Below are positions 3,235 through 50,351 of a stretch of DNA of 64,000 nucleotides, piece after piece. Each line of letters starts with the position of its first letter. Positions within the stretch are counted from its first letter, which is position 1. The position numbers and the translations under genes were made by a program. The notes below the pieces were generated by a model. The model was given only the letters and a program-made list of their open reading frames with translations. It did no database searches and was not told the origin of the DNA. Source of the DNA: a virus; the IMG/VR virus record IMGVR_UViG_3300045988_110343, positions 1-64,000 of that record. The stretch is one strand, 5' to 3'.

Positions 3235-3372
3235 TGGAAACAACAGGAATCGAACCTGTGTCGGCAATTTATATGTGATGAAAATTAAATGTAAATAAAT
3301 AAAAATACTTATATGGAGGTAGAAAAATGAATGTTTATGTATTGCCTGCTCTACCAACTGAGCTATGTTTCC
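3235..3372 (-). tRNA. tRNA gene with a ~67-nt insertion in the anticodon loop (split or intron-containing tRNA, or a disrupted tRNA)
   Basis: On the minus strand: acceptor GGAAACA/TGTTTCC (7 bp); D-arm GCTC-AGTTGGTA-GAGC; anticodon stem GGCAA/TTGCC; T-arm ACAGG-TTCGATT-CCTGT; discriminator A. The anticodon stem halves are separated by 74 nt instead of 7. Confidence 0.6.
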
Positions 3373-30340: not shown

Positions 30341-30448
30341 GTAACCAGCATCTTAACTGGTGTCAAGTTAAGTGAGATTTTAAAACTCAACCGATCAATC
30401 AAGATGGTTTGTTTTGCTTCTCTTTTAACTTGTCTTTATTATATCATG

Positions 30449-30597
30449 ACTAGTATTGTTATGTCAATACTTTTTTCAATTTTTTTGATTTACTTTTTTG
30501 AGTAAATCGTGATATAATAATACCAATCGGATTGGACTTGTATGTCTTATCCTTTTGACAGTTATAATTATACAATACTAGTATTGTTATGTCAATA
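30449..30597 (+). promoter_or_regulatory. two 32-bp direct repeats carrying AGTATTG-N6-CAATACT palindromic operators
   Basis: Identical ACTAGTATTGTTATGTCAATACTTTTTTCAAT at 30449..30480 and 30566..30597. Copy 2 carries an extra CAATACT half-site. Upstream of the HTH gene. Confidence 0.6.
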
Positions 30598-30628
30598 CTT
30601 TTTTCAATAAATTTAGGAGTAATTTTAT

Positions 30629-30883
30629 ATGTATAATATTGTAAAAAATCAAGATGATCTTATCTTACAAATAAAGCACTATATGTTAGATAATAAGTTA
30701 AAGCAAAAAGACATAGTTGCCCGTACTGGACTATCTAAACAAACTATAAGCAATCTGTTAAACGGTAGGAGTAAAAACATGACACTAGACACTCTTTTTA
30801 TGCTTTTAAATGCTTTAGATTGTAATCTATCTGTATCTTTAAATAAGAATGATAATACAGATAACACCAGCAAAGATCAATAA
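30629..30883 (+). CDS. XRE/Cro-CI-type HTH transcriptional regulator
   Basis: 84 aa. HTH KQKDIVARTGLSKQTISNLLNGRS; RBS TAGGAGT. Confidence 0.7.
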   Translation: MYNIVKNQDDLILQIKHYMLDNKLKQKDIVARTGLSKQTISNLLNGRSKNMTLDTLFMLLNALDCNLSVSLNKNDNTDNTSKDQ

Positions 30884-30889
30884 TGCTGT

Positions 30890-31850
30890 TTACTCTGCCG
30901 TATGCACATATAAGCACTTATACAGTCGTTTAAATGCTTTAGAATGTAAGTATGCAAAGATCATTTGTATTATATAGAAGGAACACGTATATAATAGTAT
31001 TATTAATATAATATATAAGTATATGTGATATAGTACAATATGTAGCACTTATCTATGCCGTAGGTGTACTATTATATAGTATTATGTATATGTAGTATAT
31101 TTATTAATTGTGTCTTTAGGGTGCATGGTATATAGTTGTATATTATACTATTATATGTTATTATATAGTTATCATAGTTTGGATCTAGTTTTGCGTGGTA
31201 GTATGAGATATACTATCATGTTATATTTGTATATGTATTTATTTATGTATGATAGCTTGATCTTGTATGATTGCCATATATTAATTTGTTTAGTTTATAT
31301 TTTAATTTGTGTATTTGTTGCAAGTGCTGGAAGTCTGCCAAACATCGAACACTTGTTTGCTTAGTAGTGTATCATGGTTTTGCTGTGCTGTCAAGTGGTA
31401 TAGATAAAAGCTATGGGTGATGGTTTGGTATAGAGTGAAGTTATAGGTGGGTTTGTGGTGGTTTGTATTGAGTGATAGAGAAAATATTGTTTTGCTGGTG
31501 TTATGTGGCGTGAAGTTTTATTTTGTGTTGATGGCGTGGATAGACTATCCAACACATTATGTAAAAGTGTTGGATAATAGACAAGTGTTGTGTAGATAGT
31601 CGCAAAGTAGTAGTCCTATTTTGGAATACTACGACACGTCGTAAACCATATTATATTATACAGCATCTGATACACTATCATGTAGTTTTGGATACTATGT
31701 GGAAATAGTTGGAAATTATCTGTACTCCTGATCCTGATCTGCCTATAAATTATTTACAATAATTGTCAAAATTCATTTGATAAAAATATAGTATTTCAAA
31801 TAGATTTATCCAGTATTTACCATAGTTTTTATATATTTATAACTATAGTA
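30890..31850. other. non-coding zone, plus strand strongly G+T+A-rich and almost C-free
   Basis: Direct reading shows long stretches without C (gtatatgt..., tggtttgtggtggtttg...). Only a Y/L/M-rich spurious ORF is present. Confidence 0.6.
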
Positions 31851-32781
31851 TACATGGGGGTATATTTACATATTTCACAATATAGTTTTTATACTTTTTG
31901 CCTTGATGTCTTCAACACGCCAAATATCTCCCTCTCATTTTTTAATCCATTATTTTCCAATTTCTCAATCACTTCCTCCCAATTTCTTCCTTTTTCCTTA
32001 AATCCATCAAAATCCACACTATTCCTACACTTTCACTACTTTTCTCCTATCTCATCAAAAAACATTACGTCGTAAGTGACGTCGTTCAACTTCCCTATTT
32101 AAGCCACTTTTGATAATTACACCTTACCCAAAATGACAGATTTTTTACTTTTTCACACCTAACACACCACTTAATTCCTCATAAATACTGGCTTCAGACG
32201 ACCTCACTCAAATTTTATTACCATTTTGACCAAAATCAGACCTTTTGCACACCACTTTTTTGCAAGTTTTTATTTTCAAACCACAGCCACAAACTTCTCT
32301 TCTTTCCTTTATTTTTATACCACATCTTAAAAACCCAAAAATTCATTTTTGTACCCATGTCTGACGACCTCACTTTTTTGATTGTCAAAACAGGGTGTCA
32401 CCAATTTCGTACCTATTTTGCATCAAAAACCCTTATAAATACTGAAGAAAACGACGATTACTCTTCTACTCTTCTTCTCTCTTATCCCAAGCAAACAAGC
32501 AATTTATTGCGCAGTTTAGGAGAGGCAGGATAAGCGTTAGCGTTCCTTCTCGACATTGCTACCGCAGGTAATATCACTTACACTCTTCCATTTCTAAGAC
32601 AATCATGTTATACTTCCATTGAGGGCTTAGGCAACCCTTGGCATCTACGCCAAAACAGACATAAAAATGATATTAAGGTATTCAAGTTGGTACCCCAGAT
32701 AATGTATCTGCAAATGCATTATCAGAATTTATGCTCAGGGAAATTTCTCTGGGCATATTTTTTACAACTAACAATCTCTCA

Positions 32782-32817
32782 TTGCAATAAAATATCTTAC
32801 ATGATATAATCATATAT
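32782..32817 (+). promoter_or_regulatory. near-consensus sigma70 promoter driving a leaderless ORF
   Basis: TTGCAA-17-TGaTATAAT, then 7 nt to the ATG at 32818. Confidence 0.55.
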
Positions 32818-33126
32818 ATGGCATTGAACAAGAACATTCAATGTATTCCATGTATCAATAAAAACAATCCCTCGCAAGGCAAAACATTTTATAAGATGGA
32901 ATCCCTTGAGCTATCAACCAGATTTGTGACAGATAGTGAACACAAGCAATCTATCAATCAGACACTCAGCCTTGCAAGCAGGGATTATTTTTATGCAAAA
33001 AATTATCTTTCATACAGTCCTATAAAAAATCGCACTCTACAGATCATAAATCCATTTTACCTATCTACTCTAACAACTCTCCACGACATACCACAAAATC
33101 CATATTTGACGAATATACTCTTCTAA
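32818..33126 (+). CDS. leaderless small ORF (N/Q/S/T-rich product), reality uncertain
   Basis: 102-aa ORF starting exactly at the predicted TSS. Amino-acid composition is driven by the C/A-rich DNA. Confidence 0.3.
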   Translation: MALNKNIQCIPCINKNNPSQGKTFYKMESLELSTRFVTDSEHKQSINQTLSLASRDYFYAKNYLSYSPIKNRTLQIINPFYLSTLTTLHDIPQNPYLTNILF

Positions 33127-33660
33127 ACATTGAGAATCACATATAATCAACACATACCATCATGCAGCAGATTCCCAAATCAGATATCTGCCACAACACA
33201 TCTTAGATCTAAGACAAAAATATCTCTTCATTATACCCTTAAAAAATGTACTCTGAGAGAGCAAATTTTAATTCTACTATCGTACCCTAACAAGTTATCG
33301 CCAAAACATATAAAATGGAAATTAGTACCAGATTTCTCATCTAAACATTGAAAATGTACACTAAGTAATTGCACACATGACCTATATCGCACACTCATAC
33401 CGCATAGGGGGGGTACACTTTACATTGAAAAGACCATTATCTGCGCCAGCATATATTGTACGTGAAAAAGTACAATGGTATTTCCTATGAAAAAATACAC
33501 CTGAGAGATCATAAATCAATTTTATACCTTTCCACTACCAACAATACCAATTTACCAATAGAATGGAAATTCCCCCACGAAAAGCTCTTCTAAATGTACA
33601 GAATCCAGTATAAAGAAAATTACATTCTACCCAGATAAAAATATGACTAACTTCCCTCAT

Positions 33661-33703
33661 TGCACCCGTTGACAAGGTGCAAAAAGTATGTTAAAATACC
33701 AAT
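33661..33703 (+). promoter_or_regulatory. promoter with palindromic operator (second copy of the 10225..10266 element)
   Basis: TGCACC-cgTTGACAa-GGTGCA aaaagtatgt TAAAAT, then 6 nt to the ATG at 33704. Confidence 0.55.
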
Positions 33704-34096
33704 ATGCTTAAAAAGAAAATGAAGAAAGAAAGGATATATACCGTGAAGAATACAAATGATTTTATACATAATTGCAATGAAGAGACAAAACTCTCTTTCA
33801 ATTTGCCACCAGATATCACACCAGATATGATATGCCAGATAATCAATTATGGTAATCTGTGTAAATATTCTTTTAAAGAATATATGTTGGCAGATACCAG
33901 AAAAGAAATTGCAATGAAGATTCATAGTTATTGGAAAGATAATTCTGAGATATTATATCCAAGATCTTCAAGATTATATATGTGGTTGTACTACAATGAG
34001 ATAACCAGAAAAAGATTACGGACATTGCAGGAAGAAAATATAAAACAATTATCATATATGATCTACATGATGAAAAACAAAGAAAGGAGAAATTAA
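33704..34096 (+). CDS. hypothetical protein (leaderless start possible)
   Basis: 130-aa basic ORF. Confidence 0.4.
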   Translation: MLKKKMKKERIYTVKNTNDFIHNCNEETKLSFNLPPDITPDMICQIINYGNLCKYSFKEYMLADTRKEIAMKIHSYWKDNSEILYPRSSRLYMWLYYNEITRKRLRTLQEENIKQLSYMIYMMKNKERRN

Positions 34097-34420: not shown

Positions 34421-35284
34421 ATGAAACAAATTAAACCCGAAGGAAAACGACAGAACTTTCATGTTATTCCACATTTTCTAATCTACAATCCAGAGTTTGG
34501 AGAAAAAAGAATATTATTTCAAATGGCGTTAGCAAACAATATGATGTTAAAATGGAATCCAGAAAAACCACCGATTCTTTATAATACAAATTTACTCGTG
34601 CGCCAAATGAGCTTTTCACAGAATTACAACTCATCAGGCATCAATGAACAAGTTAAAAAATTTATGAAATTAATTGAAGACAAAGGCTATGTTAAAAAAG
34701 TTGCATCACCAATCAAGCAGCTTACATTATATAATGTTCCGAATGAAAACACTGAAGAAAATTTATTCCTACAAAAGAAACATTACGGTATAATTTATAA
34801 CTTCGAGTTCTTATACTTGCTCCGATTACATAAGACGAATTCAATGCCATATAATACCAGAATATGGAATGTATTACTCGTGTTAGCATATCTAAGATAC
34901 AATATTATCATGCGAGTTTCAGAAGATTTTAATTCGAAAAAAAATAGAAAGAAAAGACCAGAAACATATGTGAAAACATATGATGATATCGGAAAGGAAC
35001 TTGGATTACATCGAACTACTATTGAAAAATGTGTTAAGGTTCTTGATGAGGCAGGGATTATCTATCATGAGCAATTATTCAAAACTCTTCCTGGCACTGA
35101 TAGAGTTGTATATAGTCGAATTGCTTTTACAAATAAATATAAATATGACGGAACTCAAGAATATCGCTTGGATTCCAATTACGATTATAAAAAAGAAATC
35201 GAAGAAATTAAATTACAGTTAAAACCTTACGGAGAATTCGGGAAAGCAACTAATGCTTCTTCTGATTTAGAAAACCTTGATTAA
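34421..35284 (+). CDS. putative replication initiator (winged-HTH Rep-like)
   Basis: 287 aa. HTH-like DDIGKELGLHRTTIEKCVKVLDEAGIIY. First gene after the repeat-rich non-coding region. Confidence 0.4.
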   Translation: MKQIKPEGKRQNFHVIPHFLIYNPEFGEKRILFQMALANNMMLKWNPEKPPILYNTNLLVRQMSFSQNYNSSGINEQVKKFMKLIEDKGYVKKVASPIKQLTLYNVPNENTEENLFLQKKHYGIIYNFEFLYLLRLHKTNSMPYNTRIWNVLLVLAYLRYNIIMRVSEDFNSKKNRKKRPETYVKTYDDIGKELGLHRTTIEKCVKVLDEAGIIYHEQLFKTLPGTDRVVYSRIAFTNKYKYDGTQEYRLDSNYDYKKEIEEIKLQLKPYGEFGKATNASSDLENLD

Positions 35285-36324: not shown

Positions 36325-36534
36325 ATGATAGTTTTATTTACGATTCTGATTGGTGGTGCCGTACTGTTTTGCGCAGGAATGTGTCGTTCTGCTGCTACCA
36401 GAGAAATGATTACGGAAGATATTTATTGCCAGATCAAAGCAGAAAGTTTACATAAAAACGCTTTCAGGAAACCAAGAACTGAAATGGAACAGATGACAGA
36501 CATGATTTTTAAAGAAAGCGAGGATGATGAGTAG
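36325..36534 (+). CDS. small membrane protein
   Basis: 69 aa with an N-terminal TM helix. Confidence 0.4.
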   Translation: MIVLFTILIGGAVLFCAGMCRSAATREMITEDIYCQIKAESLHKNAFRKPRTEMEQMTDMIFKESEDDE

Positions 36535-48605: not shown

Positions 48606-50351
48606 ATGGATATTTTAGATATAGACTTCGATGAAGTGAACAAACGTATGGCTCAAAGAGCCAGTGAATTGGGAGTTCAAGATATAGATCCTTCAGAAGA
48701 TACCATAGATTACGAAGCATGGACAAAATTCTTTTCTTATTATCGGTATTACATCGATGATTTTGCAACAGATATTTTAGGGATCGAACTCTTTCCTTTT
48801 CAAAGAGTTATATTGAGAGCAATGGCAAGAGGGCAAATGTCAGTATTGATTGCATGTCGTGGACTCGGTAAGTCATGGATCGTAGCCGTCTTCTATATTT
48901 GCATCTCGATATTATATCCAAATGTCAAATGTGGAATTGCTTCAGGAAGTAACCAACAGGCTAGAAACGTAATTATTCAGAAAATTAAGGGTGAGTTAAT
49001 CAAGAATGGAACTATCGCAAAAGAGATAGTTATGCCAATTCATACTTCTCCTGATGATTGTTATGTTGAATTTAATGGTGGCGGTGAAATTCGTGCCATT
49101 ACTGTTGCACAAGATCGTGGTGGAGAATCTGCTCGTTCCTGGCGTTTTAATTATTTATTGATTGATGAAGCTCGTCTGGTTAAAGATGATATCATTGAAA
49201 CAATTTTGATTCCTATGACAAAAACCAAACGTCAAAATGCTTTAAAATGGCACAAAAATGAAAAGGGTAAAGTTATTTTTATCTCTTCTGCTTATCTGAA
49301 AACAAGCGGATTATACAAGAGATTTAAATATCATTTTGAGCAAATGTGCTCTGGGAACAAGAGGTATGTTGCAATTTGTTTCCCTTATCAAGTTGGTGTA
49401 CAAGCTGGTCTTTTTGATATGGAAGACATTGAGCAAGAGTTATCTAAACCTTCTATGACAAAAGACAAATTCGCTTATGAATATGAGGGAATTTTCGTTG
49501 GTTCCAGCGGAGAAAGTTATTACCCATATGAACTTACAATGCCTTGTAGAAAACTTGAATATGGCGAATCAGATCAACCTCGAAAATCTCAATCTATCTA
49601 TGTCATCACCCATGACGTAGCTGTATCTAATGAAAAGAATTCGGATAACGCATGTACTCATGTTATCAAACTGAAAATGAGACCAAATGGTACTTATACA
49701 AAATCTGTCGTGTATACAAAAGTCATGAATGGTATACCTTTGAATAAACAAAGAGATTTCTTAAGAGAACTCATTCATATACATTTCCCTAACACAAAGA
49801 AACTGGTTATAGATGATAACGGAGTTGGTGCAGGTTTACCAACAATGTTTTATGAAAGTTGGGAATATACAGATCCTAAAACGAAAAACACAGTAGAATA
49901 TCCGCCATTGATAAAAGACGATGATGAAGATGGATTTCTACTTGATAACGCAGTTCCATTAATTCGTGGTGTTCATGCGTCAAATGAATTTCATAAAACA
50001 TTCTATCCTTACATGAAATCATGCTTCGAGGATAGATCTCTTGAATTACTATCAACCTCTGAAGAAGTTGACTCTCTGTATAAGAACGGAGAGATTACTG
50101 CGGAACAATACGCACAGCATGTAGAGCATGACATCTTGCAGAGTGAATTAAGCAATATTAAGATGGATTATTCTGAACATGGAAATGTTCAATATGTTCG
50201 TATTGTCAAGGGGCAAAAGAGAGATAGAGCTACTTCTCTTTGTTATGGATTATCTGTTATTTATGAATGGGAAGAAGAAAATAGATACACATTATTTAAC
50301 AATAATAAAAGTCATGGTTATGACTTACTTAATGAATATACATATGTTTAA
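48606..50351 (+). CDS. terL: terminase large subunit
   Basis: 581 aa. Walker A-like ACRGLGKS, then an acidic nuclease-like C-terminal half. Packed head-to-tail with the portal gene. Confidence 0.7.
   Translation: MDILDIDFDEVNKRMAQRASELGVQDIDPSEDTIDYEAWTKFFSYYRYYIDDFATDILGIELFPFQRVILRAMARGQMSVLIACRGLGKSWIVAVFYICISILYPNVKCGIASGSNQQARNVIIQKIKGELIKNGTIAKEIVMPIHTSPDDCYVEFNGGGEIRAITVAQDRGGESARSWRFNYLLIDEARLVKDDIIETILIPMTKTKRQNALKWHKNEKGKVIFISSAYLKTSGLYKRFKYHFEQMCSGNKRYVAICFPYQVGVQAGLFDMEDIEQELSKPSMTKDKFAYEYEGIFVGSSGESYYPYELTMPCRKLEYGESDQPRKSQSIYVITHDVAVSNEKNSDNACTHVIKLKMRPNGTYTKSVVYTKVMNGIPLNKQRDFLRELIHIHFPNTKKLVIDDNGVGAGLPTMFYESWEYTDPKTKNTVEYPPLIKDDDEDGFLLDNAVPLIRGVHASNEFHKTFYPYMKSCFEDRSLELLSTSEEVDSLYKNGEITAEQYAQHVEHDILQSELSNIKMDYSEHGNVQYVRIVKGQKRDRATSLCYGLSVIYEWEEENRYTLFNNNKSHGYDLLNEYTYV

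What the first reader, a model, noticed from the sequence alone, without database searches (positions are those of the whole stretch)
30890..33700. About 2.8 kb non-coding zone with extreme, mirror-image strand composition skew flipping near 31850
From 30890 to about 31850 the plus strand is G+T+A-rich and nearly devoid of C. From about 31850 to 33700 it is C+A+T-rich and nearly devoid of G.

The flip sits exactly where transcription diverges, leftward genes on one side and rightward genes on the other. As a result any RNA transcribed outward from the centre on either side would be G-depleted.

Phage genomes are normally gene-dense, so a skewed non-coding block of this size is unusual.

It contains GC-containing islands (ACGTCGTAA in both halves, GACGACCTCACT twice), a perfect palindrome TGGATAGACTATCCA and DnaA-box-like TGGATAA motifs.

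Candidate roles are a replication origin or terminus, packaging or recombination sites, or long non-coding RNAs.
Basis: seen in the sequence. Interest (0 to 1): 0.7.

Follow-up and report, generated by a model that had tools for sequence, protein, structure and literature searches.

The report
Phage genome-end packaging region, strand-skewed flanks
The odd gene-free zone is most likely where this large SPβ-like phage cuts and packages its DNA: a short terminal repeat flanked by two mirror-image stretches, each almost lacking one base, an arrangement shared by distant relatives that I could not find described in the searchable literature.

Summary
The mirror-image skew is real but patchy. Window 31000-31600 has G 23% and C 7%. 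31851-32500 has G 7% and C 27%, the most extreme skew in the 64 kb. 32950-33350 is again G-poor, and 32500-32950 is balanced. The zone is non-coding by a comparative test.

The flip is not where transcription diverges; the strong leftward promoters lie at 30.44-30.60 kb. The flip marks the predicted genome terminus of a ~160-kb SPβ-like phage that encodes the single-subunit RNA polymerase YonO (36524-39352).

A conserved box (GGGGGTATATTTACAT, 31856-31871) lies 48 nt before a conserved cut box (31908|31909). In Perkons, BUCT083 and BUCT082, annotated repeat edges or record ends fall at the equivalent positions, defining a 251-264-bp terminal repeat. Across 17 lineages, GC skew steps from about 0 to -0.74 exactly at the cut. 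The mirrored C-poor block ends one repeat-length upstream.

Identity as the packaging/terminus module is well supported. Why the flanks are strand-pure is unresolved. My favoured idea is structure-free, non-pairing single strands next to the repeat. The module is a new variant of a known kind.

The parts
30438..30608 (-). Two perfect sigma-70-type promoters (TTGACA-17/18-TATAAT) inside 32-nt exact direct repeats. This is the real start of leftward early transcription. It lies outside the finding and shows that the skew flip is not the transcription divergence point.
30629..30883 (+). XRE/Cro-type helix-turn-helix gene bordering the zone. SPβ has the HTH gene yonR next to its packaging gap, though there it is on the opposite strand.
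   Evidence: Pfam HTH_26 E=4e-12. Passes the coding test. SPβ map.
31000..31600 (.). Left skewed block. The + strand is C-depleted (C 7%, G 23%, T 43%). It corresponds to the C-poor block that ends at the left edge of the terminal repeat in relatives.
31537..31648 (.). Cluster of palindromes and inverted repeats (TGGATAGACTATCCA at 31537; AACAC..GTGTT; GTAGTAGTCC..GGAATACTAC) plus the half-site CTACGACACGTCGTAAACC (31631-31648), next to the predicted left repeat boundary. Several IMG/VR contigs of close relatives end here, at window ~31545-31645.
31645..31908 (.). Predicted short direct terminal repeat (~245-265 bp) of balanced composition. The right edge is predicted from the conserved boxes. 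The left edge is approximate (31640-31665), inferred from Perkons/SPβ geometry and from where the skew ends.
   Evidence: The left cut box is not detectable in this lineage.
31856..31871 (+). G-run box GGGGGTATATTTACAT. It is conserved in SPβ, phi3T, BUCT082/083 and many metagenomic YonO phages. A near variant lies in the Perkons terminal repeat.
31909..31921 (+). Cut box TCTTCAACACGCC, starting 48 nt after the G-run. The predicted terminase cut is at 31908|31909, and the G depletion starts here.
31909..32470 (.). Right skewed block. The + strand is G-depleted (G 7%, C 27%). In most close relatives it is replaced by an unrelated ~775-785-nt allele (about 50% identity) with the same composition. 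As RNA it is the least foldable stretch of the 64 kb.
32067..32085 (+). Tandem pair of ACGTCGT half-sites exactly 12 nt apart (ACGTCGTAAGTGACGTCGT), a candidate terminase-binding repeat. 13 of 17 lineages have a lineage-specific CG-containing repeat with the same 12-nt spacing at +48..+159 from the cut.
32197..32456 (.). Reverse-orientation half-sites of the same family: GACGACCTCACT at 32197 and 32363, and ACGACG at 32451. Also the palindromic GGTGTCACC (32394) inside a 16-mer that appears inverted in the other allele.
32473..32817 (+). Conserved island of balanced composition with a + strand intrinsic terminator (32730-32757) followed by a + strand promoter (TTGCAA-17-TATAAT, 32782-32810). 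No covariation support for a structured RNA.
32950..33400 (.). Second G-depleted block (G 9%), containing degenerate ~220-250-nt direct repeats (33018-33613).
33407..33425 (+). Inner G-run box GGGGGGGTACACTTTACAT, closing the G-poor region. Similar inner boxes occur in Perkons and in two other lineages.
33669..33697 (+). Sigma-70-type promoter (TTGACA-17-TAAAAT) for the first rightward ORF. It lies inward of the skewed blocks.
36524..39352 (+). YonO-type single-subunit RNA polymerase gene. It is always found 0.9-7 kb downstream of the module in relatives.

Best explanation
The zone is the genome-terminus and DNA-packaging module of a ~160-kb temperate, SPβ-like phage that encodes the YonO RNA polymerase.

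Anatomy. At its centre is a ~250-bp sequence (about 31645-31908) that would be present at both ends of the packaged linear DNA as a short direct terminal repeat. Terminase is predicted to recognise three elements: the conserved G-run box (31856-31871), the cut box 48 nt downstream, and an array of CG-containing half-sites. That array comprises the 12-nt-spaced ACGTCGT pair at 32067-32085, reverse copies at 32197, 32363 and 32451, and one copy at the left boundary (31631-31648). Terminase is predicted to cut at 31908|31909 and about 250 bp upstream.

The skewed blocks. They are the unique sequences immediately inside each genome end. At both ends the strand that runs 5'->3' inward is G-poor, so the strand ending 3' at the terminus is C-poor.

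What is shown: the position, the boxes, the fixed geometry, the conservation of composition without conservation of sequence, and the sharp steps at the repeat edges.

What is inferred (about 0.3 probability): why the blocks are strand-pure. My preferred mechanism concerns single strands exposed next to the ends by 5'->3' resection, by the unreplicated 3' tails of linear replication, or by repeat duplication. Those strands use a three-letter alphabet. They therefore cannot fold, and the two tails cannot pair with each other. The terminal repeat is then the only pairing-competent segment available for recircularisation or concatemer formation. The repeat itself stays balanced because it sits at both ends in opposite polarity.
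For: - Synteny: ArdA and early genes leftward, an HTH gene, the gap, small ORFs, then YonO rightward. This matches SPβ/phi3T and Perkons.
- The SPβ genome opening point lies between yonR and yonP, with a precise ~250-bp block (Kohm et al.; Kohm and Hertel review).
- Perkons has 264-bp terminal repeats mapped with PhageTerm.
- Perkons' repeat edge lies exactly 48 nt after its G-run, and the G-poor block (G 2-8, C 23-28 per 100 nt) starts there.
- The BUCT083 record starts exactly 48 nt after the same box.
- The linear BUCT082 record starts at the other boundary (|CTTCGATTCC), 251 nt upstream. The preceding 50 nt contain no C.
- SPβ itself carries the full module in the yonR-yonP gap.
- 53 of 80 viral contigs with the 16-mer box show the signature. 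Every one with enough downstream DNA has a YonO homolog (22-58% identity), and none of the chance hits does.
- Meta-profile of 17 lineages: skew goes from -0.09 to -0.74 within one 50-nt bin at the cut, the middle ~250 nt is balanced, and the C-poor block spans -600..-300. 17 control loci are flat.
- 13 of 17 lineages have a CG-containing repeat spaced exactly 12 nt at +48..+159, against 1-9% of shuffles. Reverse copies lie just inside the left edge in 8 of 13.
- The block sequence is replaced between close relatives while the composition is kept.
- As ssDNA, both strands of both blocks fold at 0 to -0.9 kcal per 150 nt, against -8.4 to -8.7 for the repeat and a coding control.
- G is exchanged for C with G+C constant and A not raised, so simple deamination is not the cause.
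Against: - No virion read data exist for this phage, so its ends are predicted, not mapped.
- A left cut box is not detectable in this lineage. Contig ends of relatives cluster near the predicted boundaries (31545-31645, 31884) but not at identical nucleotides.
- Kohm et al. interpret SPβ packaging as pac/headful, not as exact terminal repeats.
- BUCT083 is deposited as circular, and how its start was chosen is unknown.
- For the functional part: a structure-free requirement alone does not fix which base is missing, yet the polarity is the same in all lineages.
- A + strand RNA (ncr1052) maps across the equivalent SPβ cut, so an RNA-level role is not excluded.
- The repeat itself is not strand-pure, so exposed repeat strands can still fold.
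- The second G-poor block (32950-33400) lies more than 1 kb from the end.
Confidence: 0.75

Rival explanations
1. The blocks are templates for G-poor, C-rich untranslated RNAs transcribed outward from the terminal repeat. The RNAs would be structure-free. They could act as Rho-loading (rut-like) insulators that stop transcription leaving the repeat, or as non-coding RNAs. They could also couple transcription to packaging, as T7 RNA polymerase pausing at the concatemer junction does.
For: - Outward RNAs are essentially unfoldable (0 and -1.65 kcal per 150 nt), whereas inward RNAs still fold through G-U pairs (-22.9 and -7.5). That could explain why G rather than C is the missing base on the outward strand.
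- The right block is closed by a + strand terminator in the window (32730-32757) and by a hairpin in phi3T.
- A 183-nt RNA (ncr1052/ncr44) was reported between yonR and yonP on the yonP strand. With my calibration it spans the G-run box and the cut.
- The G-run box contains a -10-like TATATT.
- C about 27-30% with G 4-8% over more than 250 nt is the composition of Rho utilisation sites (established knowledge).
- YonO always accompanies the module.
Against: - The strong early promoters lie inward of the blocks on both sides, so the main early transcripts do not include them.
- No good -35 precedes the G-run box in the window.
- A transcription model does not explain why the whole ~250-bp repeat is balanced, nor why the steps coincide to within a few nucleotides with mapped DNA ends.
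- The mapped YonO late start site is not at a G-run box.
- ncr1052 rests on few reads, and its genome-version coordinates are uncertain.
Confidence: 0.25
2. The skewed blocks are simply extended terminase recognition DNA (pacL/pacR- or cosB-like). The strand-pure background serves to make the few CG-containing binding sites unique and to position terminase, with no role for single strands or RNA.
For: - Lineage-specific half-site arrays with fixed 12-nt spacing and fixed position relative to the cut.
- In the window, 6 of 12 copies of the CGTCGT/GACGAC family fall within 820 nt.
- Most of the sparse G residues in the right block lie in or next to CG-containing islands.
- Lambda cosB and SPP1 pacL/pacR are precedents for binding-site arrays flanking a cut (established knowledge).
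Against: - Outside the islands the sequence is not conserved, even between alleles of one species.
- Removing CG from the background does not require mirror-image polarity or G+C conservation.
- CG is not depleted relative to expectation in 31909-32470 (10 observed, 10.2 expected).
- The skew extends 400-600 nt or more, well beyond the sites.
Confidence: 0.2
3. The zone is (or contains) the replication origin or terminus. The skew would reflect replication-strand bias or an unwinding element next to the Rep-like gene (34421-35284).
For: - A weak replication-initiator-like ORF lies 0.7 kb to the right (PHROG E=5e-5).
- A very AT-rich TATA-repeat stretch lies at 30950-31290.
- The tandem repeats could be iterons.
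- The genome-wide coding-strand switch occurs here.
Against: - DnaA-box-like motifs are at background frequency.
- The skew magnitude (0.5-0.9) and its step-like edges at mapped DNA ends are unlike replication skew.
- The polarity is opposite to the usual G-rich leading strand for forks leaving the centre.
- There are only two direct repeat copies.
- The module travels with YonO and the termini, not with the Rep-like gene.
Confidence: 0.07
4. The skew is a neutral mutational footprint, for example damage to strands that are often single-stranded near the ends, and has no function.
For: - The skew decays with distance from the repeat edge over about 400-600 nt.
- The blocks evolve faster than the genes (80-91% against 93-98% identity).
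- The repeat would be exposed in both polarities and so would stay balanced.
Against: - The composition change is G->C with constant G+C. A does not rise on the G-poor strand (A 0.29-0.33 against 0.36 background), which is not the spectrum of cytosine deamination.
- There are runs of 83-149 nt with zero C or zero G, and single-bin steps.
- Unrelated alleles share the composition.
- The feature is retained across hosts from Bacillus to gut Firmicutes.
Confidence: 0.1

Closest known systems
Genome opening point / pac region of Bacillus phage SPβ and relatives (between yonR and yonP), and the 264-bp short direct terminal repeats of Psychrobacillus phage Perkons
   Same: Same genomic position: upstream of the small ORFs and yonO, next to an HTH gene, with ArdA and early genes on the other arm. 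Same G-run box. Same 48-nt distance to the cut box. Same ~250-bp central segment. Same mirror-image flanks.
   Different: I found no published description that mentions the boxes, the 12-nt repeats or the strand-pure flanks. SPβ packaging is described there as pac/headful. This phage is only 41-49% identical in YonO. It has a much longer zone (2.8 kb against ~0.95 kb in SPβ), with a second G-poor block and an inner G-run box.
Phage T7 terminal repeat with flanking SRL/SRR short-repeat arrays and the concatemer-junction pause site for T7 RNA polymerase
   Same: A short exact terminal repeat (160 bp) flanked by gene-free DNA. The SRL array just inside the left repeat is G-poor on the inward strand (skew -0.4 to -0.7 over ~190 nt), the same polarity. 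A phage-encoded single-subunit RNA polymerase is part of the system (the roles of T7 RNAP are established knowledge).
   Different: T7's flank is a heptamer array (CCTAAAG), not a repeat-free compositional block. The T7 right side is not mirrored. YonO is unrelated to T7 RNA polymerase. No link between YonO and packaging has been shown.
Lambda cos (cosQ-cosN-cosB) and SPP1 pac (pacL-pacC-pacR)
   Same: A cut site with an upstream element and, 50-170 bp downstream, an array of repeated binding sites for the small terminase subunit. The 12-nt-spaced half-sites and their reverse copies have the same layout.
   Different: No sequence similarity. The ends here are a ~250-bp direct repeat, not 12-nt cohesive ends or headful permutation. 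Binding of terminase to these sites is untested. Neither lambda nor SPP1 is known, to my knowledge, to have strand-pure flanks.
Rho utilisation (rut) regions
   Same: C-rich, G-poor, unstructured RNA over more than 80 nt if the blocks are transcribed outward.
   Different: No evidence of Rho dependence. The blocks lie upstream of the main early promoters. The edges coincide with DNA ends, not with transcription units.

Membership tests
SPβ-type (YonO-phage) terminus/packaging module | Location in the gene-free gap upstream of the small ORFs and yonO, at the switch between leftward and rightward gene arms | tested here: met
   YonO homolog at 36524-39352. Gene map. SPβ, phi3T and Perkons maps.
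SPβ-type (YonO-phage) terminus/packaging module | G-run box GGGGGTATATT(T/A)ACAT | tested here: met
   Exact match at 31856-31871. The relaxed form (G-run followed within 1-10 nt by TTTACA) occurs only twice in the 64 kb, both in the zone and on the + strand. Identical box in SPβ, BUCT082/083 and phi3T.
SPβ-type (YonO-phage) terminus/packaging module | Cut box 48 nt after the G-run, with onset of G depletion at that nucleotide | tested here: met
   TCTTCAACACGCC at 31909. It is weaker than the consensus ACTTCCATTTCCACAC, but the other allele of the same species has TGTTCAATCAC. The skew step is at 0 in the meta-profile, which includes this lineage.
SPβ-type (YonO-phage) terminus/packaging module | Balanced ~250-264-bp segment bounded on the left by a C-poor block | tested here: met
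   31600-31850 has skew -0.06, between +0.52 and -0.57. The exact left edge is not determined.
SPβ-type (YonO-phage) terminus/packaging module | The ~250-bp segment is physically present at both ends of virion DNA | not testable with these tools
   This needs virion sequencing reads or end mapping. Only indirect support is available: contig ends of relatives cluster at ~31545-31645 and 31884.
Lambda-type cos site | Repeated small-terminase binding sites next to the nicking site | tested here: inconclusive
   A 12-nt-spaced half-site pair plus reverse copies are present and conserved in layout. Protein binding is untested.
Lambda-type cos site | Short single-stranded cohesive ends | not testable with these tools
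   Relatives with mapped ends have ~250-264-bp direct repeats instead, which argues against membership.
T7-type terminal repeat with SRL/SRR arrays | Arrays of short (7-bp) tandem repeats flanking the terminal repeat | tested here: not met
   No short-period arrays were found in the blocks. The composition is conserved but not a repeat unit.
Replication origin (DnaA boxes / iterons / AT-rich unwinding element) | Clustered DnaA boxes | tested here: not met
   TGGATAA: 16 in 64 kb, 2 in the zone. TTATNCACA-type boxes are not clustered.
Replication origin (DnaA boxes / iterons / AT-rich unwinding element) | Multiple tandem iterons next to an initiator gene | tested here: inconclusive
   Only two direct copies (32067, 32079). 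The Rep-like ORF is 2.3 kb away and is only a weak match.
Known RNA families (Rfam 15) | Covariance-model match | tested here: not met
   No hit at gathering thresholds in the zone. With E<=5, only a chance microRNA hit, and that outside the zone.
Rho utilisation region | C-rich, G-poor, unstructured transcript | tested here: inconclusive
   Composition and lack of structure are met for outward RNAs. Transcription and Rho dependence are not testable here.

The most novel reading that the evidence does not exclude
The mirror-image, strand-pure flanks are a functional, telomere-like end device of a whole clade of YonO-encoding Firmicute phages. They would make the end-proximal single strands (or outward RNAs) structure-free and mutually non-pairing, so that the ~250-bp terminal repeat is the only sequence able to anneal. 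Possibly they also work together with the phage's own RNA polymerase in end processing or packaging, as T7 RNA polymerase does at the T7 concatemer junction.
Probability: 0.25. Interest if true: 0.75.

Novelty: new variant of a known kind. Interest (0 to 1): 0.58.

Why it matters
- It gives a nucleotide-level, testable model of the packaging signal of SPβ-type phages, whose mechanism is still described as unresolved: G-run box, 48-nt spacer, cut box, 12-nt-spaced repeats, and a 251-264-bp repeat. It suggests these phages have exact short terminal repeats rather than headful ends.
- The motif-plus-skew signature can locate true genome ends of related phages directly in metagenomic contigs and prophages.
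- Conservation of base composition and polarity without sequence conservation next to DNA ends points to a physical, strand-specific requirement in end processing. I have not found such a requirement described for phages.
- The constant linkage to the YonO polymerase raises a testable question: is transcription coupled to packaging here, as it is in T7?

Tried and rejected
- Rfam at gathering and permissive thresholds: nothing in the zone.
- blastn of the zone against 50,697 phage records: no match.
- Coding potential: rejected by indel and ORF-integrity tests in relatives.
- DnaA boxes: not enriched.
- G-run box as the published YonO late promoter: rejected. The primer-extension primers and the calibrated start site (SPβ L179:9202) lie about 210 nt downstream of the second G-run copy, and there is no similarity at the start site.
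- Chi-site protection: B. subtilis Chi (AGCGG) contains C and cannot occur in the C-free blocks of the Bacillus phages (reasoning).
- Cytosine-deamination footprint: the base spectrum does not fit.
- Restriction-site avoidance: GC-containing palindromes are not depleted in the blocks.
- Structured RNA in island 32473-32817: no compensatory changes.
- Cut box repeated at the left boundary: found only in Bacillus lineages, not in this one.
- More distant YonO-type phages: TR-TP1 shows only a weak G-poor spacer and PMBT24 none, so the sharp module is clade-specific.
- Clostridium phage D-1873 has IS elements upstream of its YonO and was not analysed further.
Full report
**1. The observation**

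Counting bases confirms a strong, mirror-image strand bias, but in patches.
- Window 31000-31600 has G 22.8% and C 7.2% (GC skew +0.52).
- 31851-32500 has G 7.4% and C 26.6% (-0.57).
- 32950-33350 has G 9% and C 24% (-0.45).
- 31600-31850 and 32500-32950 are balanced.

The 300-nt windows in these blocks are the most extreme of the whole 64 kb (mean -0.07, sd 0.23). There is a 149-nt run with no G and an 83-nt run with no C. The sign is opposite to that of the neighbouring genes, whose coding strands are G-rich.

The zone is truly non-coding. ORFs inside it carry many 1-nt indels and are intact in only about half of the close relatives. The flanking HTH (30629-30883) and Rep-like (34421-35284) genes are always intact, with third-position bias.

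The flip is not where transcription diverges. Two perfect leftward promoters lie at 30.44-30.60 kb, and a rightward HTH gene lies to the left of the flip.

**2. What phage this is**

Genes run leftward up to 29.7 kb (including ArdA and a Bro-N anti-repressor-like protein) and rightward from 33.7 kb.

The 942-aa protein at 36524-39352 is 41-49% identical to YonO, the single-subunit RNA polymerase of SPβ, phi3T, Perkons and Clostridium phage D-1873. Forrest et al. 2017 describe YonO's function. The large terminase is 58% identical to that of Clostridium phage c-st.

IMG/VR holds many near-identical contigs of up to 166 kb.

**3. The position is that of the genome ends in relatives**

Kohm et al. 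place the SPβ genome opening point between yonR and yonP, just upstream of yonO, followed by a precise ~250-bp block (review). Perkons has PhageTerm-defined 264-bp direct terminal repeats. Its YonO lies 2.1 kb from the right end and its ArdA 5.2 kb from the left end, the same order as in the window.

**4. Conserved boxes at fixed geometry**

At the start of the window's G-poor block lies ACATGGGGGTATATTTACAT (31852-31871).
- phi3T has ACAGGGGGTATATTAACAT exactly at its own skew flip, where skew goes from +0.74 to -0.69 and one 100-nt stretch has G 36 and C 0.
- SPβ has the box in the yonR-yonP gap.
- In Perkons the repeat edge lies exactly 48 nt after the G-run (...CCCTAAGC|TCATCTATCCACAC), and the G-poor block begins there.
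- The BUCT083 record starts exactly 48 nt after its box (...CCCATAGC|ACTTCCATTTCC).
- The linear BUCT082 record starts at the other boundary (...TATGT|CTTCGATTCC), 251 nt upstream. The preceding 50 nt have no C.

The two Bacillus cut boxes resemble each other (ACTTCCATTTCC and CTTCGATTCC). The resulting repeat is 251-253 bp, matching Kohm's block.

By this geometry the window's right cut is at 31908|31909 (|TCTTCAACACGCC), and the repeat spans roughly 31645-31908, which is the balanced centre. Contig ends of close relatives cluster at about 31545-31645 and at 31884. This is suggestive but not decisive.

**5. Generality**

- 53 of the 80 have a G-poor 300 nt starting at the predicted cut, with a balanced 264-nt middle and usually a C-poor block upstream.
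- Every signature locus with enough downstream DNA has a YonO homolog (22-58% identity) on the same strand. No chance hit has one.
- Over 17 non-redundant lineages, the mean skew steps from -0.09 to -0.74 in one 50-nt bin at the cut and decays over 400-600 nt. The C-poor block occupies -600 to -300.
- G+C stays constant and A does not rise. 17 control loci are flat.

More distant YonO-type phages show at most a weak version. T7's SRL array is G-poor with the same polarity, but its right side is not mirrored.

**6. The GC islands**

In 13 of 17 lineages, the G-poor block holds a CG-containing direct repeat spaced exactly 12 nt, at +48 to +159 from the cut. The repeat sequence differs between lineages. 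Shuffles give such a pair in 1-9% of trials.

The window's ACGTCGTAAGTGACGTCGT (32067-32085) is this element. Reverse copies occur further in (the window's two GACGACCTCACT copies and ACGACG) and just inside the left repeat edge (the window's CTACGACACGTCGTAAACC).

This is the layout of small-terminase binding arrays such as lambda cosB. Binding itself is untested.

**7. Allelic replacement**

In most close relatives, window 31833-32470 is replaced by a 775-785-nt segment that is about 50% identical, which is random level for this composition. The replacement keeps the G depletion, the G-run box, a cut box and CGTCG-type islands. Composition and architecture are therefore maintained while sequence is not.

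**8. Physical consequence**

As single-stranded DNA, both strands of both blocks are essentially structure-free: 0 to -0.9 kcal per 150 nt, against -8.4 to -8.7 for the repeat and a coding control. As RNA, only the outward G-poor strands are structure-free. The right block is the least foldable RNA of the 64 kb.

**9. Interpretation**

Identity as the terminus/packaging module is well supported (about 0.75-0.8).

The reason for the strand-pure flanks is inferred. Three observations point to a process tied to the linear ends:
- The steps coincide with DNA ends.
- The shared repeat is balanced.
- The polarity is mirrored.

I favour structure-free, mutually non-pairing single strands next to the repeat, which would aid repeat annealing for recircularisation or concatemer formation (about 0.3).

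Rivals are:
- Outward G-poor RNAs, supported by ncr1052 in SPβ, a -10-like element in the box and terminators that close the block.
- A pure terminase landing pad.
- A replication origin.
- A neutral mutational footprint.

Chi protection, deamination and restriction avoidance were tested and rejected.

**10. Novelty**

The approximate pac location in SPβ and the Perkons repeats are published. I found no description of the boxes, the fixed 48-nt geometry, the 12-nt repeats or the mirror-image strand-pure flanks. I rate this a new variant of a known kind.

Noticed in passing
window 3235-3372 (-): Rfam calls a tRNA spanning 138 nt (46 bits), but ARAGORN does not report it. It may be an intron-containing or otherwise unusual tRNA, located far from the main tRNA array.
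   Followed up: no
window 41824-43316 (+): An array of 10 tRNA genes lies between the YonO/HU-like region and the structural genes (terminase at 48606-50351). By analogy with SPβ it may lie within the YonO-transcribed late unit.
   Followed up: no
window 30449-30480 and 30577-30608: Two 32-nt exact direct repeats, 128 nt apart, each carry a perfect consensus leftward promoter. In many close relatives the adjacent HTH region (30378-30855) is replaced or only ~69% identical, which looks like alternative immunity/regulatory alleles.
   Followed up: partly
window 32387-32402 versus L002 (other allele): The 16-mer AGGGTGTCACCAATTT, with palindromic core GGTGTCACC, is present in both unrelated alleles of the G-poor block but in opposite orientation. 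It may be another protein-binding site.
   Followed up: no
SPβ L179:8990 and phi3T L054:12437; window 33407: A second, degenerate G-run box (GGCATGGGGGTGCCGTCAAT in SPβ, ACATGGGGGTGTTGTCAAT in phi3T) lies about 210 nt upstream of the mapped YonO late start site, downstream of yonN. The window's inner box lies about 300 nt upstream of the first rightward gene. This may point to a shared factor at the pac site and at transcription units.
   Followed up: partly
phi3T L054:10656-11072; BUCT083 L057:1737-2980: The yonO gene is split in several SPβ-like phages. BUCT083 has a GIY-YIG nuclease ORF between the two parts, suggesting an intron or intein-like insertion in the polymerase gene.
   Followed up: no
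window 33704-34096 (+): The first rightward ORF (130 aa) shows no third-position substitution bias and has several 1-nt indels among relatives, although it is intact in 22 of 24. It may be fast-evolving or not a real gene.
   Followed up: partly
T7 NC_001604 nt 26-40 and 161-167: T7's terminal repeat contains CCCCCATAGGGGGTA, and its junction pause signal ATCTGTT sits right at the repeat edge. Both superficially resemble the G-run box and the ATCTATT-type cut boxes seen here (Perkons, L117). This is probably coincidence.
   Followed up: no
window 33018-33613: Three degenerate direct repeats of ~220-250 nt (for example CTCTTCTAAACATTGAGAATCACATATAA at 33118, 33336 and 33585) lie within the second G-poor block. 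Their role is unknown.
   Followed up: no
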